DNA of 64,000 nucleotides from a virus, in the UHGV virus genome UHGV-0218015. One strand, given 5' to 3'. Below are positions 12,546 to 56,626 of this stretch, in pieces; the first letter of the stretch is position 1; every line of letters begins with the position of its first letter. Made by a program: the position numbers and the translations under genes. The notes beneath the pieces were generated by a model. That model saw only the letters and a program-made list of their open reading frames with translations, was not told the origin of the DNA and did not search any database.

Positions 12546-12593
12546 TTACAATTTTTAAACATAGTGTGAGACTTAAAAGAAGGAGTGTTAATT

Positions 12594-29549: not shown

Positions 29550-29598
29550 CTACCGCCCGATTCTATGGGCGGTAGATGTTTTTTATTTTTTTTTGATC
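29550..29598 (+). terminator. rho-independent terminator
   Basis: ctaccgccc...gggcggtag then long T-run. Confidence 0.75.
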
Positions 29599-30376: not shown

Positions 30377-33300
30377 ATGGCTAAAGCGGTAAAGAAAATA
30401 CGTTTACACGACTTACATCCGTACACCGGGGATATCGGTGAAGGCGTTTTACTTTTTTCGAAAGACGAAAAAGATTATAAGTTACCAGTCCGCGAGATCG
30501 TTGCGGACATTGACACCGTCAGAAGTGCGGTTGCTGATGCACAAACGGCTGCGGCCAAATCACAACAGTCCGCAACAGAAGCTACGAAAGCTAAAGATTT
30601 AGCAGAAACAGCGAAGCAACAGACCACCACTTTAGCTTCCACAGTTAATGAGCAAGCGGGAACCGTCGCCACTAAAACTGCGGAGGTTAACAAAAAACAC
30701 GCTGAAGTTTTAGCAGCGAAAACTGCCGTAGATACTGTTTCACAATCAGTAAATGAGAAGGCTCAAGCTGTCGCCGCAAGCGAACAATCTGTGACAGCTG
30801 TAGCGGCTGATGTAACTAAGAAAGCAGAAACGGTTACGCAACGGGCCGGACAGGTTCAACAGACCGCTACCAGTATCGCAAATACTGCGGCTTCAATTGA
30901 GGCCAGTAAGGGCGCGGTGGAGAAGGTTGCTGCGCAGGTTACGAAAGATAAAGAAAGCTCAGAAGGCGCAGCTACACGCTCGGAGTCAGCCGCTCTGCGT
31001 GCGGAGAAAATCGCTGCACAGGGTTTAGTTGACGCTAGTACGACCGGTAAAGGTATCGTTAAACTTAACAATACCCTGACTAGCGAATCCGTGACGGAGG
31101 CTGCCACACCGTCCACGGTTAAACAGCTGAACGACGAATTACAGTTAAAAGCCGATAAACATTCGCCGAATTTTACGGGTAACCCGACATCACCAACGCC
31201 TCCAAAGGACTCGAATGACACGAGCATCTCCACAACGGCCTGGGTGCGTGCTGCTATCGCGGAATTGGTTGGTTCTTCACCTGAGACGTTAGATACCTTA
31301 GCGGAATTAGCTACGGCGTTAGGTAATGACCCTAACTTCGCAACAACGATTACTGAGAAACTTGCACAGAAGCAACCTATCAGTCCACTACTTACTGCTA
31401 TTGCCGCAGTCACAACCGCAGCAAACAAGCTCCCTTATTTCACTGGCACTAATAAAGTCGGGTTAACTGACTTTACAGAAACCGCCAGAACCTTGTTAGC
31501 AAAAGGGACAACTGCGGATATCATCAATTTCTTGGGATTAAAAGCCACTGTAGATAAAGCGAACTCTGCGTTACAGAAAAACTCTAACGGTGCTGATATC
31601 CCCAATAAAGAAACCTTTGCTCGCAATATTGGTCTATCTCCTGATACCTATCTGCGTTTCCGTGGTGAAATGCCCGCAGATGCTGATATTAACACATTTG
31701 CTCCAGATGCCAATTACACAGGAACATGGTCCAAGTCGACATCAACAAACGCATCGATAGCAAAACACTTCCCGGAAGACGGTGCGGTAGGTTATCTAGA
31801 AGTGTATAAAGCGGGCAACTACAGTGGAGCGCAACGTTTTACCTGCCGTAATGGTAACGTGTACAACCGCATGTTGTCAGCCGCGTGGAACGGAACTAAT
31901 GGCCCGTGGTCACCGTGGAGAATGGTAACTACAGGTGTACGCCCGTTATCTACATCGATCGATCTGAACTCCTTAGGCGGCGCTGAGCACATGGGTAACT
32001 GGCGTAACTCGTCCAGTTCGTTAGCGGTGTTCGACAGACATTATCCTGAAGAGGGCGGTAATGCGCAAGGCGTATTAGAAGTCATGGAAGGCGGTCTTTA
32101 TGGACGTTTACAACGTTACACCACTCGTCGTGGTACGATGTATGTCCGTGGTTTGACTGCGACTTGGGATTCGTCTAATCCGCAGTGGGAAGATTGGATT
32201 CAGGTTGGGTATCAGGTAGACGGTGCCTACTATAAGGGTAGCTTTAACGACTTAACTAAACCGGGTCGCTTTAGTGTTACCGGCGAGGCTACAGACGGTC
32301 CGTTAACAGACTCTGCTGGCGCAACCTTGCTAGGCGTTTGCGAAGTTACCTTACGCTTAGACGGTTCAGGTGTTGAACAAAATTATACCACATACGGTAC
32401 AGGCGCAACTTCGAAAGGTCGCAAGTTCCAACGAATTCGTACAGGAAATGCCTGGAGCGAATGGCGAGAGATTTTCACATCCTATTCACTCCCGTTGGCT
32501 TTAGGGATCGGTGGGGTTGCTGCTAAGGTAGATCCGTTAGACTGGCAAACCTTCGACTTCGTTCCTGGCCAGATGATAAGTACACCATTGAATACCATGA
32601 AAAACATTCCTGCGGGAATGGATTGGGGTGTTATCGACGGTAACTTGGTTACTATTCTTGTAGGGGCGTCGGAGGACACCGGTACTGGCCGGAGTATGTT
32701 GGTCTGGCGTGGTACAGTGTCTACTGCTAACTATCGCTTCTTTGCTGTTCGCGTCGCTGGTGAAAAGGGTAAACGTACTATTACTAGCCGCCAGATGCCC
32801 GTATTGAATGCAGCGCATACGTGGGCAGAAAAACAGACCTTTGCAAAAGGGTTATCAGGTGAGTTAACAGGCAATGCTGCTACGGCAACGAAACTGAAAA
32901 CAGCCCGTTTAATCGGCGGTGTAAGTTTCGACGGTAGCGGAGACATTAGCCTCCCTGGTGTAAACCAACAGGGTAATCAAAACACCTCTGGGAACGCGGG
33001 AACCGCAACCAAATTACAAACGGCTCGAAACATCAACGGTGTGAAATTTGATGGGTCTAGAGACATCAATATCAACACGTTGGTAGGACGTGGACGTGTT
33101 ACTGCACTGACTGGATCAAACAAAGGTACACCCGGTATTCAGATGTACGAAGTTTACAATAACGGTTATCCAACCGCTTATGGTAACTTACTGCATTTGG
33201 GCGGTTCTGCTGCGCTAGGCGAAGGGGAACTGTTAATCGGATGGTCGGGGACGAGCGGTGCGCACGCACCCGTTTATATTCGTAGTCGACGTGATACTGC

Positions 33301-34816
33301 TGATGCGCCGTGGTCAGATTGGGCACAAGTTTATACTGCCCGTGATAGCATTCCTGGTGTAAATGCCACAGGTAATCAGGATACTACCGGCAACGCCGCT
33401 ACCGCGACGAAACTGAAAACCGCTCGCAGGATCGGAGGCGTTAGCTTTGACGGTACAGGTGATATCAATTTACCGGGCGTTAACCAGCAAGGCAACCAGA
33501 ATACGACAGGTAATGCAGCGACCGCTACTAAGTTACAAACCGCACGTAAGATCGGCGGTGTGGTGTTCGATGGGACAAAAGACGTTAATCTTCCTGGTGT
33601 AAACCAAACCGGTAACCAATCGACTACGGGGAATGCGGCGACAGCGACTAAGCTACAGACTGCTCGAAATATAGGTGGCGTAGCTTTTGATGGTACTAAA
33701 GACATCAGTTTACCTGGAGTAAACCAAACAGGGAATCAGTCGACCACCGGAAACGCAGCCACGGCAACAAAGTTGCAAACCGCAAGAACCATCAATGGTA
33801 TTGCGTTTGATGGCACTAGAAATATATCGTTAGGGCCAGCCGAAATAGGTTGTCCGGCATCACCTAGTGGTTGGTTAGAAACTGGCGCTAATGGCGGTGC
33901 AATAACTACAGCACAGCTAGTGACGTTATTGAAAAATAACGGCGCATTTACCACAAGATCGTGGGTTGCTCGCTGTGCGTGGGCTTATGCCGCCAGTGCG
34001 TCCATACCTCACAGCGAGACGGGTTGTGGTGTCATTCCGTTAGCTGGGGCCGTTATAGAAGTCATTAGTAACGGCAACAGCACAAACAACTACACGATCC
34101 GTATAACGACCGCCACAACGACGAGCGTCGGCGGAGCACTCACTAATGCGGAGTTTATCTACGTATTTAACGGCGATGGATACTCACCAGGCTGGCGTCG
34201 TGCTTACAATACGAGAAACAAGCCAACTGCTGCGGAAGTGGGCGCGTTACCGTCAGGGGGCGGTACTGTAGGCGGTGATTTAACCGTTAATGGTAAATTG
34301 GCCACTAAATACCCTGATTTTCGAATCGCTTACGGTACCTACGGTTTTATTTTACGTAACGACGGTGCCAATACCTATTTCTTAGTAACCGACGCCGGAC
34401 AAGCCGCAGCGGGTTCCTGGAACGGATTACGCCCGTTGTCTTTTAATAATTCTAACGGCCAAGTAAACTTTGGACATAACGTTACTGGCAACGGTAACGG
34501 TTCGTTTAACGACGTACAGATTCGTTCTGACCGTCGTAACAAACGTAATCTGGTGAAGCTGGATAAAGCTTTGGATCGGTTAGAGTTACTAACCGGTTAT
34601 TTGTACGAAATTCAGCATCCTGATGACGGTTGGCAGACTTCTGTAGGTCTAATTGCTCAGGACGCATTAGAAGCGTTACCTGAACTTGTGTCAGAGGACG
34701 ACGATGCCATTTCAGGCGAAAAACGTTTACGTCTAAATTACAATGGCGTTATTGCGCTGTTAGTAGAGGGTATGAAGTCTCTTCGCCGAGAGCTTAAAGA
34801 ACTCAAGGGGAATTAA
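30377..34816 (+). CDS. tail fibre protein with C-terminal S74-type intramolecular chaperone
   Basis: 1479 aa; Ala-rich N-terminal region, TLDTLAELATALGNDPNF tail-fibre motif, six ~40-aa repeats (GNAATATKLQTAR..GGV.FDG), C-terminal SDRRNKRNLVKLDKALDRL...YNGVIALLVEGMKSL matching the autoproteolytic chaperone. Confidence 0.8.
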   Translation: MAKAVKKIRLHDLHPYTGDIGEGVLLFSKDEKDYKLPVREIVADIDTVRSAVADAQTAAAKSQQSATEATKAKDLAETAKQQTTTLASTVNEQAGTVATKTAEVNKKHAEVLAAKTAVDTVSQSVNEKAQAVAASEQSVTAVAADVTKKAETVTQRAGQVQQTATSIANTAASIEASKGAVEKVAAQVTKDKESSEGAATRSESAALRAEKIAAQGLVDASTTGKGIVKLNNTLTSESVTEAATPSTVKQLNDELQLKADKHSPNFTGNPTSPTPPKDSNDTSISTTAWVRAAIAELVGSSPETLDTLAELATALGNDPNFATTITEKLAQKQPISPLLTAIAAVTTAANKLPYFTGTNKVGLTDFTETARTLLAKGTTADIINFLGLKATVDKANSALQKNSNGADIPNKETFARNIGLSPDTYLRFRGEMPADADINTFAPDANYTGTWSKSTSTNASIAKHFPEDGAVGYLEVYKAGNYSGAQRFTCRNGNVYNRMLSAAWNGTNGPWSPWRMVTTGVRPLSTSIDLNSLGGAEHMGNWRNSSSSLAVFDRHYPEEGGNAQGVLEVMEGGLYGRLQRYTTRRGTMYVRGLTATWDSSNPQWEDWIQVGYQVDGAYYKGSFNDLTKPGRFSVTGEATDGPLTDSAGATLLGVCEVTLRLDGSGVEQNYTTYGTGATSKGRKFQRIRTGNAWSEWREIFTSYSLPLALGIGGVAAKVDPLDWQTFDFVPGQMISTPLNTMKNIPAGMDWGVIDGNLVTILVGASEDTGTGRSMLVWRGTVSTANYRFFAVRVAGEKGKRTITSRQMPVLNAAHTWAEKQTFAKGLSGELTGNAATATKLKTARLIGGVSFDGSGDISLPGVNQQGNQNTSGNAGTATKLQTARNINGVKFDGSRDININTLVGRGRVTALTGSNKGTPGIQMYEVYNNGYPTAYGNLLHLGGSAALGEGELLIGWSGTSGAHAPVYIRSRRDTADAPWSDWAQVYTARDSIPGVNATGNQDTTGNAATATKLKTARRIGGVSFDGTGDINLPGVNQQGNQNTTGNAATATKLQTARKIGGVVFDGTKDVNLPGVNQTGNQSTTGNAATATKLQTARNIGGVAFDGTKDISLPGVNQTGNQSTTGNAATATKLQTARTINGIAFDGTRNISLGPAEIGCPASPSGWLETGANGGAITTAQLVTLLKNNGAFTTRSWVARCAWAYAASASIPHSETGCGVIPLAGAVIEVISNGNSTNNYTIRITTATTTSVGGALTNAEFIYVFNGDGYSPGWRRAYNTRNKPTAAEVGALPSGGGTVGGDLTVNGKLATKYPDFRIAYGTYGFILRNDGANTYFLVTDAGQAAAGSWNGLRPLSFNNSNGQVNFGHNVTGNGNGSFNDVQIRSDRRNKRNLVKLDKALDRLELLTGYLYEIQHPDDGWQTSVGLIAQDALEALPELVSEDDDAISGEKRLRLNYNGVIALLVEGMKSLRRELKELKGN
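32833..33072 (+). repeat. in-frame 120-bp coding repeats, copies 1-2 (tail fibre)
   Basis: Units begin cctggtgtaaacc; encode GNAATATKL.TAR..GGV.FDG. Confidence 0.6.
33353..33832 (+). repeat. four tandem 120-bp coding repeats (tail fibre)
   Basis: Unit starts at 33353, 33473, 33593, 33713; protein-level conservation with synonymous divergence. Confidence 0.7.
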
Positions 34817-34821
34817 AGATA

Positions 34822-34848
34822 GGGGGAGTAATCCCCCTAATTTAGTTT
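34822..34848 (+). terminator. terminator candidate after tail fibre gene
   Basis: aggggg-agtaat-ccccct then aatttagttt. Confidence 0.4.
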
Positions 34849-34857
34849 GGAGGATTT

Positions 34858-35403
34858 ATGGGGGTAGCATCCGGCTGGGTTGGAAGCTCAGCAAAGGCAG
34901 TAACCGGTCAGGAGTGGATGAGTGTGGCAGGTAATAAGCTTAAACTGAGCACGCCATTTAACATGTCGCAGATGGTCGGGCGTAGCGTAGAGGATCTTAA
35001 ACTCGTTGTAGGCCGATCAACCTATGTTGTTTTGGTGCAGGCTACGAACACGCAGTGGGTTCCTATTACAAATACGTATGGGGGGTATTCGAACAACTCT
35101 ACAACAACGGGTGCTGGTTCTACAGTATCGAATCGTGTGCAAACACAAAATGCGGCCGGTTCGGTGTCAGGTTCGATCTTGGGTTGTAGCGTCACACATC
35201 TTAGCCAAGTACAAAATACTGGTATTATCTACATGGCCCTAACCAATGGACCAAATCAGAATATTACGCTTTCGTTTAACGGAACGAAGATTACTTTTCT
35301 ACCGTACTCCTACAGTAACGGCGTCCGGCGCTATGAGGCTAAGACGGCAACCAACTGGTTATTTAATCAGAACGGTGCAACAATTTCAATAAGTGTAGTC
35401 TAA
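34858..35403 (+). CDS. tail-fibre-associated protein (paralog of 35657..36163)
   Basis: N-terminus MGVASGWVGSSAKAVTGQEWMS matches the paralog; sits immediately after the fibre gene. Confidence 0.45.
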   Translation: MGVASGWVGSSAKAVTGQEWMSVAGNKLKLSTPFNMSQMVGRSVEDLKLVVGRSTYVVLVQATNTQWVPITNTYGGYSNNSTTTGAGSTVSNRVQTQNAAGSVSGSILGCSVTHLSQVQNTGIIYMALTNGPNQNITLSFNGTKITFLPYSYSNGVRRYEAKTATNWLFNQNGATISISVV

Positions 35404-35413
35404 GGACAGAAAG

Positions 35414-35644
35414 ATGTTAAGAAAAGTTTTACTGGGTTTCGCATTGCTTACAGTAAGTGGATGTCAACAACTACCCGAACCTGTATGTTACGGCACAGCT
35501 AAGCTGGGTAATGAAGAGACTACGATCAATATTTTCGACGTAAAAAAGCAGGGCAGATACACACTTTATAAAGCTGATCATCATTATAATTGGCGTTGGG
35601 TTGGGCGTGGTGCTTTCGATTCAATAACATGTAGAAAATCTTAA
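35414..35644 (+). CDS. small lipoprotein
   Basis: Signal peptide with lipobox LTVSGC; 76 aa. Confidence 0.5.
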   Translation: MLRKVLLGFALLTVSGCQQLPEPVCYGTAKLGNEETTINIFDVKKQGRYTLYKADHHYNWRWVGRGAFDSITCRKS

Positions 35645-35656
35645 CAGGAGATCGCG

Positions 35657-36163
35657 ATGGGGGGGGTAACCGGTTCGTGGGTCGGTTCTTCGGCCAAGAA
35701 CGAAACGGGCGAACAATGGATGAGCGCTGCTGGTAGTAAATTAGGATTGGGTAGACCTTTTATGATGAGTCAAATGGTGGGACGATCTATGGGCTGTAAA
35801 ATTGCAACCGCTGCATATAGCGATTCTTTAGGTAAGAAATGGGGCGCAGTAGGACCAAGCTGGCCGTTAAACCAGAAAAATCAGGGAACCATTCAAAACG
35901 CGGGTAACTGCGGGGTGGGAACTTTAGTAGGTATTGAGTTACAGTTAACGACGATAGTTGCCAACGCAAAGCCTACTTTAGCGGTTTACTTACAAGGAGG
36001 CAGAGCCTCTAACATTACCGTAAATTTAGGTGGTAACACCTGCGCGCTGGCCTATCAGCAGGTTATTAACGGACAGCATTATTACTGGACTAATAACATC
36101 AGCGCTGCGTTCCAAAACGTGATGAAATCGACAGGCGCACTGCGTGATTTGAGAATTAGCTAA
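35657..36163 (+). CDS. tail-fibre-associated protein (paralog), G8 tract at codons 1-4
   Basis: ATG GGG GGG GTA start; N-terminus matches 34858 gene. Confidence 0.45.
   Translation: MGGVTGSWVGSSAKNETGEQWMSAAGSKLGLGRPFMMSQMVGRSMGCKIATAAYSDSLGKKWGAVGPSWPLNQKNQGTIQNAGNCGVGTLVGIELQLTTIVANAKPTLAVYLQGGRASNITVNLGGNTCALAYQQVINGQHYYWTNNISAAFQNVMKSTGALRDLRIS
35659..35666 (+). repeat. G8 homopolymer at codons 1-4 of the 35657 gene
   Basis: atgggggggggta; the paralog at 34858 has only G5 here. Confidence 0.7.
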
Positions 36164-36197
36164 TTATTTTCAACTGAAAGCGGTTGAAAATAATCGT

Positions 36198-36207
36198 GGG
36201 GGGGGGG
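36198..36207 (+). repeat. G10 homopolymer in 5' region of the 36262 gene
   Basis: Preceded by AT-rich hairpin ttttcaac...gttgaaaa (36167-36190). Confidence 0.7.
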
Positions 36208-36261
36208 TGAATGTTTTTTAGTCAATATTTTATGACCCCCAACCGTAGGAGGTAAACATAC

Positions 36262-36774
36262 GTGGAAAAATTCACACCAGATTTATCACTAACTTCACTT
36301 AACATGGTTATTTCACTGGTTAACCATGACCTCCAACTTGACTTGCAAGAGAACGAGGTTGAAGTCAGTGACGTAAAAACCAGTGATGAAATGGATCGTG
36401 ACTCCACTGCCATTGTAAAGATTAAACGTCCTGGAAACAGAACGTTGCAAATCTACTACAACCGTTTAACCGCAGAGCGGTGGTTAAACCAACAACCTAT
36501 TCTGGTAAAAGTAAGAGGTGAAGGGTTTAATGCACACGATCTTATCGAATCCGTCAATGCCGTTTGTGGTGCTAACTTACAAACCGACGATTTAACCGAC
36601 CAGTCGTTCACGGTAGGTAAAGACGCGGTAACGCTTAGCATCGCTCCGAATTCCATCGCTTATAAAGGACAGTTCTCCGTGGTGGTTTTCGGCCCAGATG
36701 AAACACCGTGTGGCATCGGTGATGATTCTGTCGTGTTGACGTTTGACAATAAAATCTTAACTTTTGGAGAGTAG
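36262..36774 (+). CDS. RBP-module accessory protein (paralog of 29611..30171)
   Basis: GTG start after AGGAGG; sits directly upstream of the second RBP gene. Confidence 0.45.
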   Translation: MEKFTPDLSLTSLNMVISLVNHDLQLDLQENEVEVSDVKTSDEMDRDSTAIVKIKRPGNRTLQIYYNRLTAERWLNQQPILVKVRGEGFNAHDLIESVNAVCGANLQTDDLTDQSFTVGKDAVTLSIAPNSIAYKGQFSVVVFGPDETPCGIGDDSVVLTFDNKILTFGE

Positions 36775-36777
36775 TAG

Positions 36778-38898
36778 ATGAGTCAGCCAATTGGAAAGAA
36801 ACGTATCCATGAACTCGACAATTTCTCTGGCGATCTCAAAGGTGCGTTAGTTCTTCTTTCTAAGGAAGAAAAAGAATATAAAATTGATATTGCAAAACTT
36901 CAGGGCACGACGGAGCCGGAGTATTACTTCGTGATTCCTATAGCCGGGCAATCTAATGCGATGAGTTATGGTGAAGGGTTGCCTCTACCGGCGACGTTGG
37001 ACGCTCCCGATCCGCGAATTAAACAGATGGCGCGCCGTGCGAAGGTAACGCCTAATGGGGCTGATTGTAAATATAACGACGTCATTCCAGCGGATCACTG
37101 TCTGCACGACGTGCAAGATATGTCCAAATACTCGCATCCCAATGCCAATTTGAGCAAAGGTGAATACGGATGTGTGGGTCAAGGTCTACATATCGCGAAG
37201 CGTCTTCTCCCGTATATTCCTAAGAACGCCGGTATCTTACTAGTACCCTGCGCACGCGGCGGTTCTGCTTTCACGGGTGGTGCAGAAGGTACCTTCGATG
37301 AAGCCACAGGAGCCACTGAGTCGTCAATGCTATGGGGGGTGGAGAAACCGCTTTATAAAGATTTAGTTAGCCGGACCAAAAAAGCTCTAGAAGTTAATCC
37401 TAAAAATAAACTCTTGGCTGTAGTGTGGATGCAGGGAGAGTATGATCTGACTAAAGTACAATACGCACAACAACCAGCGTTATTTAACGCAATGGTAGAG
37501 CGTTTCCGAACTGATCTCTCTGACCATCTCTCTCAGATGCCCGAGTACGACACCGCCGAAGTACCATGGATCTGCGGGGACACTACCTATTATTGGAAGG
37601 AAAAATATCCTGCCCAATATGAAACCGTATACGGTAATTATCGTAACAATGAACAAAAAAATATCTTTTTTGTTCCATTCATGTACGACGATAATGGCCA
37701 ACGTGTACCGACTAATGATCCCACTGACGATCCTGATATCACTGGTGCGGCCTATTACGGTGCTGCCTCCCGTACTGTTAAAAACTGGACGTCTGAAACA
37801 AGGAATAGCCATTTCAGTTCTTGGGCACGACGCGGTATTATCTCAGAGAGAATAGCTGCCGAGATATTATCAAGAACAGCGATTGGTGCAATGTTCCTGA
37901 CGAAGAACGACACTAAGAGCTCCAAAGACAATAAGAATGTGGTAAGAAGCTATACCCCATTAGTAGAGTCTGTGGGTTATAACGGACGTCGTGGGGATGG
38001 TTCCCTGAAAGGGCAAGGTTGGAACAATATCGTTGATTGTAACGTAACCGTGCAAGATTCTGAGGATGGAAACGGGCATTTCGTCGAATTAAGAAAGGCT
38101 GTAAAGATGAAACCTTGGAATGTAACTAAGTCAATGACATCTGCTGCGGACATGATACGTTACGGTGGACGTCTGACCGTTACTTTTAGACTAAAAGGTG
38201 ATTTAGCAGCAGATCGTTTCGGATTAGGACTTTATTGGCGTATTTCCGCGTCCGACCTACCTTCTGGTACTACATTTGCTGACGCTGGTGTGGCTGAGAC
38301 GAACCCGTACCTAATGTCTTTTTTCTTACAGACCGACGCTACGAATCTTAATCTGATGCATCATAAAAAGCAAAATGCGAAATTAGGAACTTTTGGTGCG
38401 TACGATAATAACTGGCATACGCTTGAAATCATTTATCCTGGTGCCAATAAAACCACAGTCACACCTGTGCTGGACGGTACGAATGGTACTCCATTTGATC
38501 TGGCGAACAGTCCAGCTAAGACCGATTTGAACGAATTGGTTCTGACGGATATTACGAAAGTTACTGCCTATGATATCGATATTTCTAAGTTTGAGATCTC
38601 GGTCAATCGTGATTCTGGTAGCATAGTGTTATCTGAGGAAGATGTGTCGTCTTATGTGTATTTCCCACCCACCAACCGTGGCGGCCAACTTACTATTCCT
38701 GATCTAGAATATAGTGTGGGCAGAAATATTCAGATCGTGGCAAATAAGGCTGGTAAGATCACCGTTAAACCGGAAAATTCAAACGTTCTCATCACTCCAA
38801 AGAGTGGGACAGAAGGTCTTGCCAAACCCATTGATACCAATGAAAGTATTACGCTAATGCAGATTGGTTCCGATGGTAAAAGCTGGGTAGTTATTTAA
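36778..38898 (+). CDS. tailspike/RBP with SGNH (SASA-type) esterase domain
   Basis: N-terminal ~35 aa shared with the fibre at 30377; then IPIAGQSNAMSYGEG resembling the GQSN block of sialate O-acetylesterase/SGNH hydrolases. Confidence 0.55.
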   Translation: MSQPIGKKRIHELDNFSGDLKGALVLLSKEEKEYKIDIAKLQGTTEPEYYFVIPIAGQSNAMSYGEGLPLPATLDAPDPRIKQMARRAKVTPNGADCKYNDVIPADHCLHDVQDMSKYSHPNANLSKGEYGCVGQGLHIAKRLLPYIPKNAGILLVPCARGGSAFTGGAEGTFDEATGATESSMLWGVEKPLYKDLVSRTKKALEVNPKNKLLAVVWMQGEYDLTKVQYAQQPALFNAMVERFRTDLSDHLSQMPEYDTAEVPWICGDTTYYWKEKYPAQYETVYGNYRNNEQKNIFFVPFMYDDNGQRVPTNDPTDDPDITGAAYYGAASRTVKNWTSETRNSHFSSWARRGIISERIAAEILSRTAIGAMFLTKNDTKSSKDNKNVVRSYTPLVESVGYNGRRGDGSLKGQGWNNIVDCNVTVQDSEDGNGHFVELRKAVKMKPWNVTKSMTSAADMIRYGGRLTVTFRLKGDLAADRFGLGLYWRISASDLPSGTTFADAGVAETNPYLMSFFLQTDATNLNLMHHKKQNAKLGTFGAYDNNWHTLEIIYPGANKTTVTPVLDGTNGTPFDLANSPAKTDLNELVLTDITKVTAYDIDISKFEISVNRDSGSIVLSEEDVSSYVYFPPTNRGGQLTIPDLEYSVGRNIQIVANKAGKITVKPENSNVLITPKSGTEGLAKPIDTNESITLMQIGSDGKSWVVI

Positions 38899-38904
38899 TT
38901 TAAA

Positions 38905-38945
38905 CCGTAGGATGGACTTAGTCCATCCTACGGTTTTTATATTTT
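38905..38945 (+). terminator. rho-independent terminator after tailspike gene
   Basis: 13-bp stem ccgtaggatggac / gtccatcctacgg then T-run. Confidence 0.8.
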
Positions 38946-38995
38946 TTCTCAGATATATATTACCTAGGAGAGAGTGAAATTTACGTTCACTCCAT
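38943..38995 (+). promoter_or_regulatory. conserved promoter-like cassette, copy 2
   Basis: ttttctcagatatatattacctaggagagagt plus inverted repeat gagtgaa/ttcactc. Confidence 0.45.
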
Positions 38996-41167: not shown

Positions 41168-41209
41168 CGAAGGCTTAATCACACCACCATTTACCTAAAG
41201 GAGCATTAA

Positions 41210-41725
41210 ATGTCAGTAAATATTAACATGAATCTTTATACTAAACGTGAACGTCAGATTCTGGCGAATCAACCTGGTGTTACGACTATCGACGGTAAAC
41301 CTATTGACCGTTTAAAAGTTATCGTTGCGCGAAATTGTCATGAACACGATTGGGACATCACTTACTTCCGTTGTTGTTCGGTCGCAAACGCGCTTACTCA
41401 ACTCTCTAACTACCACTCAGGACCGCTATTAAAAGACTGGGTTTGGTTAGTGCCTAGAACACCCTCAGCAATTGAGTATCCCGCTGGACTAGTTTATATT
41501 CGACCTGTCGCTTATCCAGAGCGTCTGAAAGAATATCTTGAAGTTATCTGGAACCGTCCTCGTAAAGAGCTGGTGACGATTATTAATTTACTGCAGCAGA
41601 TCGAAATCCCTGGCGTTTCGAATTTGAAACTCACGTCTCGCGATATTAACCAGGCTTACTGGGAACTGGAGTGGACAGAACCGAAATTCGAAAACACTAA
41701 CCGTATTTTCTTGCACCGGGGGTAA
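41210..41725 (+). CDS. hypothetical protein
   Basis: ORF with AAGGAG SD. Confidence 0.5.
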   Translation: MSVNINMNLYTKRERQILANQPGVTTIDGKPIDRLKVIVARNCHEHDWDITYFRCCSVANALTQLSNYHSGPLLKDWVWLVPRTPSAIEYPAGLVYIRPVAYPERLKEYLEVIWNRPRKELVTIINLLQQIEIPGVSNLKLTSRDINQAYWELEWTEPKFENTNRIFLHRG

Positions 41726-51110: not shown

Positions 51111-51119
51111 GGGGGGGGG
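51111..51119 (+). repeat. G9 homopolymer in intergenic hairpin
   Basis: Between the two four-gene-family members. Confidence 0.7.
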
Positions 51120-51150
51120 TGGTAACCTCCCCCGATATTTCTTTAACTTT
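51111..51150 (+). terminator. G-tract hairpin terminator candidate
   Basis: G9 followed by tggtaacctccccc and a T-rich tail; imperfect stem. Confidence 0.4.
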
Positions 51151-51170: not shown

Positions 51171-51701
51171 ATGGCAGCTACTAACCAGATGATGTTAGTT
51201 GCGCTTTATAATGCTGCTAACACAGAGCTACCGCATCAGGTCACTGATAAAGAGGTAACTTTTGGTCAACCTGTCGCTCTTGAAAAGGGCGATAAAAATA
51301 CCAAAGTTACCATGACCGCACGTACAGAGTCTGAAAATTTTAAAGGCGCAATCGAACTGCATTACGATCGTCTGGAACCTGGCGTTATCGGACGCATTGA
51401 GGTAACGGACGATTTGGCTCTCTGGACTGGAGAAAACGAACTACGCGACCGATTACAGTTCTACATCAATAAAGTAAAACCTGACGACTCTATCGCGCCT
51501 GGTGACGTTGAGTACACCACCGAAGACCAGAAAGACGAACACGATAGCGTCACTCTGCGTACGGTAACTTGTACCGTTACTGAAAAGAACCTCCGTTATA
51601 AACCGGGTGTAATGGCAACTTTCGTAATTACGCCGAAAGTTGTTGATAATCGTATTGACCTGGCCACCACCGACGGTGAACTTGACGGCTTTACTGCTTA
51701 A
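51171..51701 (+). CDS. hypothetical protein, four-gene family member
   Basis: Paralog of 50573 (ENFKGA.ELHYDRL, GELDGFTA); bidirectional terminator follows. Confidence 0.5.
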   Translation: MAATNQMMLVALYNAANTELPHQVTDKEVTFGQPVALEKGDKNTKVTMTARTESENFKGAIELHYDRLEPGVIGRIEVTDDLALWTGENELRDRLQFYINKVKPDDSIAPGDVEYTTEDQKDEHDSVTLRTVTCTVTEKNLRYKPGVMATFVITPKVVDNRIDLATTDGELDGFTA

Positions 51702-56107: not shown

Positions 56108-56626
56108 TTATTTTACGGTCAATCTGACGTTCAAGGTATAGAACCCGCCACGCCATTGCCTGCCGGTAACTTCAAATTCTGCAGTAAAGCCGTTTGATTT
56201 ACTCGGTTGCTGCTTAATCGCCATGCTTCCGCCGGAATTACTTAATACTTCTAATGAGATAGAAGCAGAAGATGCATTACCGATAGAGTCTATCTTAAAA
56301 CTAGCCGCGTCTGTAAAATTAACAGTGATACCATTACCCATTGCAACTTGAGGGTAGGCGTAGGACTTTCCAGACAGTAACGATTTAAAGACCCTTATCG
56401 GTTTCTCTCTACCGGTTGACGTTACGCATTGAATAAAGACAGCCCCAGTAGAGAAATTGATACGAACAGTATCTTTAGCGTGTAGCTTAGACTCAACATA
56501 AACAACGGCTTTGTTGTCGTAGGTTGGTCTTGAAGGGGTTGGCGTAGAACCACCGCTAGAGGGCTTACTTACCCCCCCCCGCCCCCTTACTACAGCTACC
56601 GCTGCACGACCAACTACATCCGCCAT
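56108..56626 (-). CDS. beta-rich domain protein, possibly expressed as a fusion to peptide P3
   Basis: Annotated ATG lies inside the P3 coding region; body is +1 relative to P3 across a G9 tract; Pro/Ser/Thr/Gly linker then beta-rich sequence. Confidence 0.4.
   Translation of the reverse strand: MADVVGRAAVAVVRGRGGVSKPSSGGSTPTPSRPTYDNKAVVYVESKLHAKDTVRINFSTGAVFIQCVTSTGREKPIRVFKSLLSGKSYAYPQVAMGNGITVNFTDAASFKIDSIGNASSASISLEVLSNSGGSMAIKQQPSKSNGFTAEFEVTGRQWRGGFYTLNVRLTVK

What the first reader, a model, noticed from the sequence alone, without database searches (positions are those of the whole stretch)
36167..36207. AT-rich hairpin followed by a G10 tract upstream of the second RBP module
ttttcaac...gttgaaaa forms an 8-bp stem immediately followed by ten Gs, about 55 nt before the 36262 start. 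G-tract length in a 5' region can tune promoter spacing or UTR structure and hence expression of the downstream accessory gene and esterase tailspike. G-quadruplex or polymerase-pausing roles are also possible.
Basis: seen in the sequence. Interest (0 to 1): 0.45.

Follow-up and report, generated by a model that had tools for sequence, protein, structure and literature searches.

The report
Hypervariable poly-G tract before phage tail gene
The run of ten Gs is real, sits in a conserved stem-loop just ahead of a tail-associated gene pair of an undescribed giant enterobacterial phage, and changes length (8 to 13) between otherwise identical phage genomes, so it is a mutational hot spot that could act as a switch, though no effect on gene expression has been shown.

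Summary
Both features exist. The hairpin is a perfect 12-bp inverted repeat (36163-36174 / 36183-36194). After 3 nt comes G10 (36198-36207), 54 nt before the GTG at 36262. Neither is chance: about 0.02 G10 runs and 0.04 such repeats are expected per window.

The window is part of a ~225-kb SPN3US-like jumbo phage. It has no close relative in the phage database but occurs in many gut metagenomes and as a ~222-kb "plasmid" in enterobacterial isolates.

In 35 assemblies the tract is 8 to 13 G (mode 10). Genomes with zero SNPs over 6.2 kb carry 9 or 11. A lineage with an interrupted tract (G4TG5) is invariant in six assemblies. Five contigs end at the tract.

The G run is the 5' arm of a conserved stem-loop whose C-run arm lies 6 nt before the ribosome-binding site of a DUF7941 virion protein, followed by a NanS-like sialate O-acetylesterase.

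In a complete relative genome the only two G/C runs of 7 or more both lie 5' of DUF7941 paralogues. In the window clade, sister tracts switch a second gp38-like adhesin and another ORF in and out of frame.

It is therefore a genuine hypermutable repeat, probably a contingency-type leader element. The effect on expression is inferred. Promoter-spacing and G-quadruplex readings are not supported.

The parts
36163..36194 (+). HP1: perfect 12-bp AT-rich inverted repeat (8-nt loop) overlapping the stop codon of the upstream gp38-like gene
   Evidence: dG -14.1; random expectation 0.04 per window. The core TTTTCAA...TTGAAAA is kept in relatives. The eighth pair is C-G in the window and G-C in L027/L057.
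36198..36207 (+). Hypervariable poly-G tract (G10 in the window), the subject of the finding
   Evidence: Length is 8-13 in 35 assemblies. Zero-SNP haplotypes carry 9 or 11. The interrupted G4TG5 form is invariant in six assemblies, and contigs break at the tract.
36198..36240 (+). HP2: conserved leader stem-loop with a G-run 5' arm, an inner AU stem and a C5 3' arm (36236-36240)
   Evidence: In one search, 94.7% of cells pair against 51-73% when the partners are slid, but covariation is not above shuffles. dG -18.5.
36247..36264 (+). Shine-Dalgarno AGGAGG (36247-36252) and GTG start (36262-36264) of the DUF7941 gene
   Evidence: conserved in all relatives.
36262..36774 (+). DUF7941 protein, 170 aa (virion structural protein family, probable fibre or enzyme anchor)
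   Evidence: The SPN3US homologue is annotated as a virion structural protein and lies directly before tail fibre genes.
36778..38898 (+). 706-aa NanS / NanS-p-like sialate O-acetylesterase
   Evidence: SASA, DUF6645. (PDB 3pt5 NanS E 3e-122; 6yp6 NanS-p E 1.7e-38).
38902..38936 (+). Intrinsic terminator closing the DUF7941-esterase unit, followed by a phiKZ-type early promoter motif (TATATTAC at 38956)
35657..36163 (+). Upstream gene: second gp38-like adhesin. Its start codon is fused to a second variable G tract (35659-35666, G8 here).
   Evidence: G8/G11 give 168/169 aa; G9 gives 26 aa; G10 gives 4 aa. The gene is in frame in 4 of 14 window-clade genomes; L082 (G11) is a further in-frame case.
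51111..51119 (+). Sister tract: G9 forming the 5' arm of a G-run/C5 hairpin in the gap before another DUF7941 paralogue (51171-51701)
   Evidence: 9 or 10 among assemblies; conserved as a 9-mer in NZ_CP173450.1.
56572..56580 (-). Sister tract: G9 on the coding strand in the 5' part of ORF 56108-56626
   Evidence: It is 10 in L012 and an interrupted 10 in L011, and in both the ORF is cut to 77 aa.

Best explanation
The G10 is a hypermutable mononucleotide repeat. It gains and loses single Gs by slipped-strand mispairing during phage DNA replication. It forms the 5' arm, plus a 5' overhang, of a conserved stem-loop in the leader of a two-gene late unit (DUF7941 virion protein plus NanS-like O-acetylesterase) of an SPN3US-like jumbo phage.

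Its most likely role is a contingency-type element. Each phage population carries a mixture of tract lengths that slightly re-register or extend the leader stem-loop next to the ribosome-binding site, or alter spacing for the phage's own RNA polymerase. This would give graded, heritable but reversible differences in how much of this tail-associated module is made. Sister tracts in the same genome switch a second gp38 adhesin fully on and off.

Shown: the tract is real and non-random, its position is conserved across lineages, its length changes faster than point substitutions accumulate, it sits in a conserved hairpin, and long G/C tracts associate with DUF7941 genes. Inferred: that the length changes alter expression and are selected.
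For: - Length varies 9/10/11 with identical flanks.
- L006, L007 and L009 have 0 SNPs over 6.2 kb but tracts of 11, 11 and 9. L005 and L045 differ by 1 SNP and carry 10 and 11.
- 35 assemblies from at least six lineages (DUF7941 72-100% identical) give 8:1, 9:10, 10:16, 11:5, 12:2, 13:1.
- The interrupted G4TG5 tract is identical in six assemblies. Five Logan contigs end within about 20 nt of the tract.
- The G run pairs with a C run 6 nt upstream of the SD in all 13 aligned relatives.
- In the complete 221,873-bp relative NZ_CP173450.1, G/C runs are length 5 x87, length 6 x4, length 7-8 x0, then one 9 and one 10. Both long runs are G on the coding strand directly 5' of DUF7941 paralogues. Those paralogues are too distant to be a recent duplication.
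- Neighbouring tracts in coding 5' ends flip ORFs in and out of frame while the rest of each ORF stays intact.
- Predicted SD accessibility falls from 0.66 (G5) to 0.32 (G11).
- Precedent: Campylobacter phages use poly-G tracts for phase-variable receptor-binding proteins (Sorensen 2021, as cited in PMC10579305 and PMC10877375).
Against: - No expression data exist, and the transcription start and the promoter type for this unit are unknown.
- The predicted structural effect of tract length is small.
- HP2 conservation rests mainly on sequence identity. Covariation is not above shuffles.
- Some lineages manage with G4-G5 or with interrupted tracts, so a long pure tract is not required.
- A T9 run at 29586 also differs (T9/T10) between genomes 2 SNPs apart, so homopolymer instability is general in this phage.
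- G/C hairpin arms have also expanded at sites not linked to DUF7941: C8-C10 near 41181, and C9/C10 upstream of gp38 in L033/L024.
- The lengths of the two neighbouring tracts correlate across assemblies (rho 0.64, p 0.02, n = 13). This could indicate a sample-level technical bias.
Confidence: 0.45

Rival explanations
1. Neutral by-product. This phage's intergenic hairpins are typically G5/C5-clamped. One arm drifted past the slippage threshold where extra bases are tolerated, then became hypermutable. Host mismatch repair may not reach the phage DNA, which would add to this. Under this reading the length changes have no consequence for the phage.
For: - G5...C5 hairpins are the common intergenic hairpin type in this phage (34820, 47912, 51111).
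- Either arm can expand in relatives: C10/C9 upstream of gp38 in L024/L033, and C8-C10 near 41181.
- T9/T10 variation also occurs between near-identical genomes.
- Lineages with G4-G5 or interrupted tracts exist.
- The predicted effect on RBS accessibility is small.
Against: - In a complete relative genome only two of about 90 G/C runs of 5 or more have expanded. Both lie 5' of DUF7941 genes, and no run has length 7-8.
- The tract has stayed long (8-13) at the same position in at least six diverged lineages.
- Tracts in the same gene cluster sit exactly where they switch ORFs. That placement is hard to call neutral.
Confidence: 0.35
2. The tract is real but its length variation is technical: PCR or sequencing slippage and assembler choices at a G homopolymer. 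The true length would then be fixed.
For: - All data are consensus assemblies of short-read metagenomes. No reads could be examined.
- The lengths of the two neighbouring tracts correlate across assemblies.
- Contig breaks at the tract could equally reflect poor read quality there.
Against: - There are three to six length classes with comparable frequencies across different assemblers and sources (ENA, Logan, NCBI isolates, a finished E. coli replicon). Consensus errors of that size at G9-G11 are not expected from Illumina data.
- The coding tract 540 nt upstream is out of frame in 10 of 14 window-clade genomes, spread over four lengths, rather than clustering on one in-frame value.
- Related lineages differ by up to 5 nt (8 to 13).
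Confidence: 0.07
3. Host sigma-70 promoter element. Either the tract is the spacer between -35 and -10 so that its length sets promoter strength, or a TTTTCA-N16-AATAAT promoter inside HP1 starts transcription within the G run.
For: - A 9-of-12 match, TTTTCA-16-AATAAT (36167-36194), would place the start about 7 nt downstream, inside the tract.
- The -10-like hexamer is TATAAT, CATAAT or AATAAT in most relatives.
Against: - Such matches are no more frequent than in shuffles (10 found, 11.1 expected).
- No -35/-10 pair flanks the tract at 16-18 nt. TTGAAA at 36184 would need a 20-nt spacer to reach a poor AATGTT.
- The phage encodes phiKZ/SPN3US-type RNA polymerase subunits and uses a TATATTAC early motif. 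Phages of that type transcribe independently of the host polymerase (PMC7598289).
- If the start lay inside the tract, tract length would not change promoter spacing.
Confidence: 0.05
4. Recombination linker. The invariant AATC plus G run, preceded by TTGAAAA-yr-T, acts as a short shared homology patch at which receptor-binding cassettes are exchanged between related phages. This is not exclusive of the other explanations.
For: - L050 has the L021-type sequence up to ...ttattagaatc and the L027-type sequence from the G run onward.
- L045 and L047 are identical over 12 kb upstream but carry different adhesin and DUF7941 cassettes.
- The conserved block starts just upstream of the tract whatever gene precedes it.
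Against: - Only about 15-25 nt are shared, and breakpoints were not mapped statistically.
- A linker role does not explain why the run is pure and long, or why a second such run precedes a distant DUF7941 paralogue.
Confidence: 0.08

Closest known systems
Hypermutable poly-G tracts in receptor-binding-protein genes of Campylobacter (Fletchervirus) phages (Sorensen et al. 2021, Cell Rep 35:109214; cited in PMC10579305 and PMC10877375)
   Same: Both are phage-encoded G homopolymers in the host-recognition region that vary in length within and between populations. In the Campylobacter phages they give phase-variable RBP expression. The neighbouring gp38-like gene here behaves in exactly that way, with the tract inside the ORF.
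   Different: The G10 of the finding is intergenic, in a leader stem-loop, so it cannot act by frameshifting. The host group (Enterobacteriaceae) and phage type (about 225-kb SPN3US-like jumbo phage) also differ. No phenotype has been shown here.
Bacterial contingency loci with homopolymers in promoters or 5' regions, such as Neisseria porA/opc poly-G/C between -35 and -10 and Bordetella fim poly-C (from general knowledge, not tested here)
   Same: An intergenic G/C homopolymer of about 9-13 nt upstream of a surface-interaction gene, with length polymorphism among close relatives and a proposed graded 'volume control' effect.
   Different: In those systems the tract sets the spacing of a sigma-70 promoter. 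Here no such promoter brackets the tract, and the phage is expected to use its own RNA polymerases. The tract instead forms a hairpin arm next to the RBS.
Intrinsic terminators and intercistronic G/C-clamped hairpins of this same phage (34820-34839, 47912-47930, 51111-51133)
   Same: The same G-run ... C-run architecture in gaps between late genes. The sister tract at 51111 is followed by a T-rich stretch, as a terminator would be.
   Different: HP2 has a 28-nt interior with its own AU stem and is followed by AACCGTAGGAGG, not a U run. HP1 is AT-rich with no U run. Neither meets the terminator definition.
Other phage tropism-switching devices: Mu Gin / P1 Cin invertible tail-fibre segments and the Bordetella BPP-1 diversity-generating retroelement (cited in PMC10579305)
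   Same: The same proposed biological purpose: heritable, reversible diversification of the receptor-binding apparatus within a phage population.
   Different: The mechanisms are entirely different (site-specific inversion, reverse-transcriptase mutagenesis). No invertase or reverse transcriptase is involved here.

Membership tests
Simple-sequence-repeat contingency (phase-variable) locus | Uninterrupted mononucleotide repeat long enough to slip (about 8 nt or more) | tested here: met
   G10 at 36198-36207; 8-13 in relatives.
Simple-sequence-repeat contingency (phase-variable) locus | Repeat length differs among otherwise (near-)identical genomes, faster than point substitutions accumulate | tested here: met
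   0-SNP haplotypes carry 9 or 11, and 1-SNP haplotypes carry 10 and 11. The interrupted tract is stable in six assemblies.
Simple-sequence-repeat contingency (phase-variable) locus | Mixed lengths within one population | tested here: inconclusive
   Five Logan contigs terminate at the tract, which fits graph branching. No reads were available to count alleles.
Simple-sequence-repeat contingency (phase-variable) locus | Repeat placed so that length changes alter expression (in the ORF, promoter spacer or leader) | tested here: inconclusive
   The tract lies in a conserved leader hairpin ending 6 nt before the SD. The predicted change in SD accessibility is about two-fold. The promoter is unknown.
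Simple-sequence-repeat contingency (phase-variable) locus | Reversible switching of a phenotype | not testable with these tools
   Needs phage culture, reporters or virion proteomics.
Campylobacter-phage-type poly-G RBP phase variation | Tract inside the coding sequence of a receptor-binding protein, so that indels frameshift it | tested here: not met
   G10 is intergenic (36164-36261). The feature is met by the neighbouring tract at 35659-35666 in the gp38-like gene.
Sigma-70 promoter with homopolymer spacer | -35 and -10 hexamers flanking the tract at 16-18 nt | tested here: not met
   The only scan hit (36167-36194) lies wholly upstream of the tract. TTGAAA at 36184 would need 20 nt to reach a poor hexamer.
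Rho-independent terminator | G+C-rich stem directly followed by a U run | tested here: not met
   HP1 has 2 G-C pairs in 12 and is followed by CGUGGGG. HP2 is followed by AACCGUAGG. Neither appears in the terminator scan.
Intramolecular G-quadruplex | Four G runs separated by short loops | tested here: not met
   There is a single run of 10 G with no further G runs nearby.
Any curated RNA family (Rfam 15) | Covariance-model match at or near the gathering score | tested here: not met
   No hit in 36150-36262. The only hit in 35300-36800 is a sub-threshold chance match at 36460.

The most novel reading that the evidence does not exclude
An enterobacterial SPN3US-like jumbo phage carries a small set of hypermutable poly-G tracts that act together as contingency loci for its receptor-binding apparatus. 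One tract fused to a start codon switches a second gp38 adhesin on and off. Tracts in leader hairpins before DUF7941 anchor proteins, including the one paired with a NanS-like sialate O-acetylesterase, tune how much of each accessory tail module is mounted. A single phage lineage in the gut would then always contain virions with different host-recognition equipment.
Probability: 0.3. Interest if true: 0.75.

Novelty: new variant of a known kind. Interest (0 to 1): 0.55.

Why it matters
Phase variation through homopolymer slippage is a textbook bacterial strategy. In phages it has so far been documented essentially only for Campylobacter phages. If the tracts here are functional, a widespread but undescribed gut jumbo phage of E. 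coli, Shigella and Salmonella would be using the same bet-hedging device. It would use it both as an on/off switch (gp38 adhesin) and possibly as a rheostat (leader tracts before DUF7941 genes).

That bears on host-range prediction and phage-therapy design. It also affects how homopolymer 'frameshifts' in phage assemblies should be read, because they may be states rather than errors. Because many public samples contain the phage, the claim can be tested directly from existing reads.

Tried and rejected
- **Database searches with no result.** Megablast of the locus against 50,697 phage records found only a 135-nt gp38 N-terminal match. An exact-pattern scan of IMG/VR for the hairpin-tract flanks found nothing. 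Esterase DNA against E. coli genomes found no match. Rfam gave no family.
- **Sigma-70 spacer model.** Rejected on spacing and phage type.
- **phiKZ-type late promoter T(-3)ATG(+1).** A TATG lies at 36231-36234 but is replaced by TACG, TTAC or TATC in relatives, so it is not conserved.
- **Recurrent motif (c/t)at(a/t)GTGAGA.** It occurs upstream of other genes but is absent here.
- **Upstream ORF.** An ORF runs from ATG 36211 to the TAA at 36253-36255 inside the SD region (14 codons). In the L024, L031, P0019 and P0005 lineages it stops after 2 codons, and it is absent in the L023 type, so it was dropped (sequences).
- **Attenuation-like switch.** I tested whether a ribosome terminating at the gp38 stop would melt HP1 and refold HP2. 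Masking the HP1 5' arm leaves HP2 unchanged.
- **Covariation support for HP2.** Not above shuffles.
- **AlphaFold2 model of the DUF7941 protein.** Mean pLDDT 49, too poor for a fold search.
- **PDB sequence search for DUF7941.** No significant hit.
- **Recent duplication of the two DUF7941-linked tracts.** Rejected because the paralogues are too distant.

Full report
**1. What is there**

The sequence shows, directly after the TAA stop of ORF 35657-36163, a perfect 12-nt inverted repeat. Its arms are ATTATTTTCAAC (36163-36174) and GTTGAAAATAAT (36183-36194), with an 8-nt loop. I call this hairpin HP1. It is followed by CGT, ten Gs (36198-36207), TGAATGTTTTTTAGTCAATATTTTATGA, CCCCC (36236-40), AACCGT, AGGAGG (36247-52), then 9 nt and the GTG at 36262.

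The tract is 3 nt away from the stem, not adjacent to it. The 54-nt distance to the start is right.

Both features are non-random:
- A G run of 10 or more is expected 0.018 times per window.
- A perfect 12-bp short-loop repeat is expected 0.04 times. The window has only two such loci, this one and the terminator at 38902-38936.
- The region folds with z = -3.9.

**2. Context**

The gene order is as follows:
- a 1479-aa tail fibre (30377-34816)
- a gp38-like adhesin (34858-35403)
- a Cor-like protein (35414-35644)
- a second gp38-like adhesin (35657-36163)
- the 98-nt gap with the finding
- a 170-aa DUF7941 protein (36262-36774)
- a 706-aa SASA-domain protein (36778-38898)
- a strong terminator
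- a phiKZ-type early promoter motif, TATATTAC

The 706-aa protein is a NanS / NanS-p homologue (PDB 3pt5, E 3e-122; 6yp6, E 1.7e-38).

DUF7941 belongs to PHROG families annotated as 'virion structural protein'. In some PHROG profiles the domain is the N-terminal part of 512-701-aa proteins. In SPN3US its homologue lies immediately before tail fibre genes. It is therefore plausibly an anchor module, but that is an inference.

The phage itself has no close DNA relative among 50,697 phage records. Its internal head protein is 58% identical to that of SPN3US. Its RNA-polymerase beta-like subunit is 77% identical to that of Erwinia phage Asesino and 73% to that of SPN3US. Phages of the phiKZ/AR9 type studied so far transcribe with their own virion and non-virion multisubunit polymerases (PMC7598289).

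**3. Related genomes**

The exact DUF7941 protein is indexed in 192 blocks of the public collection, many of them contigs of about 225 kb from gut metagenomes. Orthologues at 69-99% identity occur in contigs of 222-226 kb named from Shigella flexneri and several Salmonella serovars. They also occur in two finished circular 'plasmids': E. coli 98232 NZ_CP173450.1 and Enterobacter ludwigii NZ_CP134650.1.

**4. Length variation**

In near-identical genomes the flanks are identical and the tract is 9, 10 or 11.
- L006, L007 and L009 have no SNP over 6.2 kb yet carry 11, 11 and 9.
- L005 and L045 differ by one SNP and carry 10 and 11.
- Over all lineages, 35 distinct assemblies give 8:1, 9:10, 10:16, 11:5, 12:2, 13:1.

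An internal control exists. One lineage has the tract interrupted (G4TG5), and it is identical in six independent assemblies, whereas its pure-G10 sister exists as L062. Five Logan contigs end within about 20 nt of the tract (L069, L070, L073, L076, L077), as expected if the assembly graph branches there.

Against over-interpretation:
- A T9 run at 29586 is T9 or T10, including between two genomes that are 2 SNPs apart.
- The lengths of the two neighbouring G tracts correlate (rho 0.64, p 0.02, n = 13). I cannot explain this. It could be technical or biological.
- No reads were available.

**5. Anatomy across relatives**

I aligned 13 orthologous gaps. The conserved block is TTGAAAA-yr-TAATC, then G(n), then an inner AU-rich stem (TGAAATGTT...AACATTTTA or ATAAAAT...ATTTTAT), then C(3-6), about 6-8 nt, the SD and the start.

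RNAalifold pairs the last Gs with the C run and closes the inner stem. 94.7% of cells pair, against 51-73% when partners are slid. Covariation is not above shuffles. This second hairpin, HP2, is therefore conserved mainly through sequence conservation.

The G block takes three forms:
- long and pure in at least six lineages
- interrupted in five (GAG10, GAG7, G5AG4, GGAG5, G4TG5)
- short (G4-G5, exactly matching the C run) in the Salmonella-type lineages L023, L030, L033 and L047

HP1 keeps its TTTTCAA/TTGAAAA core. Its eighth pair is C-G in the window and G-C in L027 and L057.

**6. Genome-wide view**

In the complete relative NZ_CP173450.1, G/C runs have length 5 (87 of them), 6 (4), 7-8 (none), 9 (one) and 10 (one). 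The two long ones are both G on the coding strand. They lie 5' of the orthologues of window genes 36262 and 51171, two DUF7941 paralogues so distant that BLASTP gives E = 0.058.

With six DUF7941 genes among about 225 genes, two hits by chance have a probability of about 7e-4. This is my own rough calculation. It is less extreme if only G/C-clamped hairpins are counted as candidate sites.

In the window the sister site is G9 at 51111-51119. It forms a G-run/C5 hairpin followed by T-rich sequence and is 9 or 10 among assemblies.

**7. Sister tracts in coding sequence**

The start codon of the second gp38-like gene is fused to a G tract (35659-35666). The tract is G8 here and 8, 9, 10 or 11 in 14 window-clade genomes.
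- G8 and G11 give 168- and 169-aa proteins.
- G9 gives a 26-aa peptide and G10 a 4-aa peptide.
- Only 4 of the 14 are in frame, yet the rest of the ORF is intact in all. The ancestral form is ATGGGGGTA (G5).

A G9 in the 5' part of minus-strand ORF 56108-56626 is 10, or an interrupted 10, in two assemblies, which cuts the ORF to 77 aa. These behave like classical phase-variable genes. They show that tract slippage in this phage has consequences for gene products.

**8. Mechanism**

What can be said for the G10 itself is limited.
- It cannot frameshift anything.
- No sigma-70 promoter brackets it.
- A phiKZ-type TATG late start at 36231-34 is not conserved (PMC7598289).
- A 14-codon upstream ORF is not conserved.
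- Thermodynamic folding with 4 to 14 Gs keeps HP1 and HP2. The extra Gs pair with the CC of AACC. The unpaired probability of the SD falls from 0.66 (G5) to 0.56, 0.41 and 0.32 for G9, G10 and G11. This effect is mild, graded and unverified.

I therefore rank the explanations as follows:
- a contingency-type leader element, 0.45
- a neutral by-product of slippage in a tolerated hairpin arm, 0.35
- a recombination linker, 0.08, suggested by the mosaic joint at AATC plus the G run in L050
- a technical artefact, 0.07
- a host-promoter role, 0.05

**9. Comparison and novelty**

The closest precedent is the poly-G phase variation of RBP genes in Campylobacter phages (Sorensen 2021, cited in PMC10579305 and PMC10877375). 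The neighbouring gp38 tract fits that model. The G10 does not, because it is intergenic. It resembles bacterial promoter or leader homopolymers in position but not in mechanism.

Literature searches for jumbo-phage homopolymer phase variation found nothing matching. I rate the finding a new variant of a known kind, of moderate interest. The observation and its hypervariability are solid. The function is open, and it can be tested directly from existing public reads.

Noticed in passing
window 35657-35666 (gene 35657-36163): The second gp38-like adhesin starts ATG fused to a G tract. The tract is 8, 9, 10 or 11 in 14 window-clade genomes and in frame in only 4 of them. G10 gives ATG GGG GGG GGG TAA. 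The rest of the ORF is intact, and the ancestral form in relatives is ATGGGGGTA. It looks like a phase-variable adhesin and may be a more important finding than the G10.
   Followed up: yes
window 51111-51133: A G9 forms the 5' arm of a G-run/C5 hairpin before DUF7941 paralogue 51171-51701. It is 9 or 10 among assemblies and is conserved as a 9-mer in NZ_CP173450.1, where it is one of only two G/C runs of 7 or more in 222 kb.
   Followed up: yes
window 56572-56580 (minus-strand ORF 56108-56626): A G9 on the coding strand lies in the 5' part of a 172-aa ORF of unknown function next to a radical-SAM gene cluster. It is 10, or an interrupted 10, in two assemblies, which truncates the ORF to 77 aa.
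   Followed up: partly
window ~41168-41209; L001, L006-L008: An alternative allele of the gap before ORF 41210-41725 carries a poly-C tract (C8, C9, C10, C10) that the window allele lacks. L006, L007 and L009 are identical further upstream but differ here, so recombination has occurred. Relatives L024 and L033 have C10 and C9 in the hairpin upstream of their gp38 gene.
   Followed up: partly
window 35414-35644: A 76-aa Cor-like superinfection-exclusion protein (phrog_1119, E 1e-25) is inserted between two gp38-like adhesin genes. It is absent from several relatives.
   Followed up: no
window 36778-38898: The 'esterase tailspike' is a homologue of E. coli NanS and prophage NanS-p, 9-O-acetyl-sialate esterases. 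It is present only in some lineages. Others have a 206-aa protein, or nothing, after the DUF7941 gene. There is no near-identical DNA in 5,426 E. coli genomes.
   Followed up: partly
L045 vs L047; window 34800-37500: Two contigs that are identical over 12 kb upstream carry entirely different adhesin, Cor and DUF7941 cassettes. This is cassette exchange on one backbone.
   Followed up: partly
window 33593-33712: A 120-bp in-frame deletion in the 1479-aa fibre gene (giving 1439 aa) is present in L001/L042 and L048.
   Followed up: no
window 19883, 38956, 43329: A recurrent motif, tcagatatatattac(c/t)tagg, follows terminators and looks like the phiKZ-type early (virion RNA polymerase) promoter. 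A second recurrent motif, (c/t)at(a/t)GTGAGA, precedes the genes at 12585, 19207, 25207 and 46567.
   Followed up: partly
NZ_CP173450.1, NZ_CP134650.1; contigs named from Shigella flexneri and Salmonella isolates: This jumbo-phage genome is deposited as a circular ~222-kb 'plasmid' in finished E. coli and Enterobacter ludwigii genomes. It also appears as 222-226-kb contigs in isolate assemblies. This suggests a carrier or pseudolysogenic state. No close relative is present in the phage database.
   Followed up: partly
window 36241-36250 and 38903-38912: The 10-mer AACCGTAGGA occurs both in the leader, overlapping the SD, and as the 5' arm of the terminator that closes the same two-gene unit. 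The terminator's 3' arm is therefore complementary to the leader. Chance or 5'-3' pairing was not resolved.
   Followed up: no
window 29586-29594: The T9 of the terminator before the DUF7941 gene that heads the fibre operon is T9 or T10 among assemblies, including between genomes 2 SNPs apart. A/T runs are therefore not fully stable either.
   Followed up: yes
window 35659 and 36198 across 13 assemblies: The lengths of the two neighbouring G tracts correlate (Spearman 0.64, p 0.02). This is unexplained. It could be a sample-level technical bias, shared replication history or coupling.
   Followed up: partly
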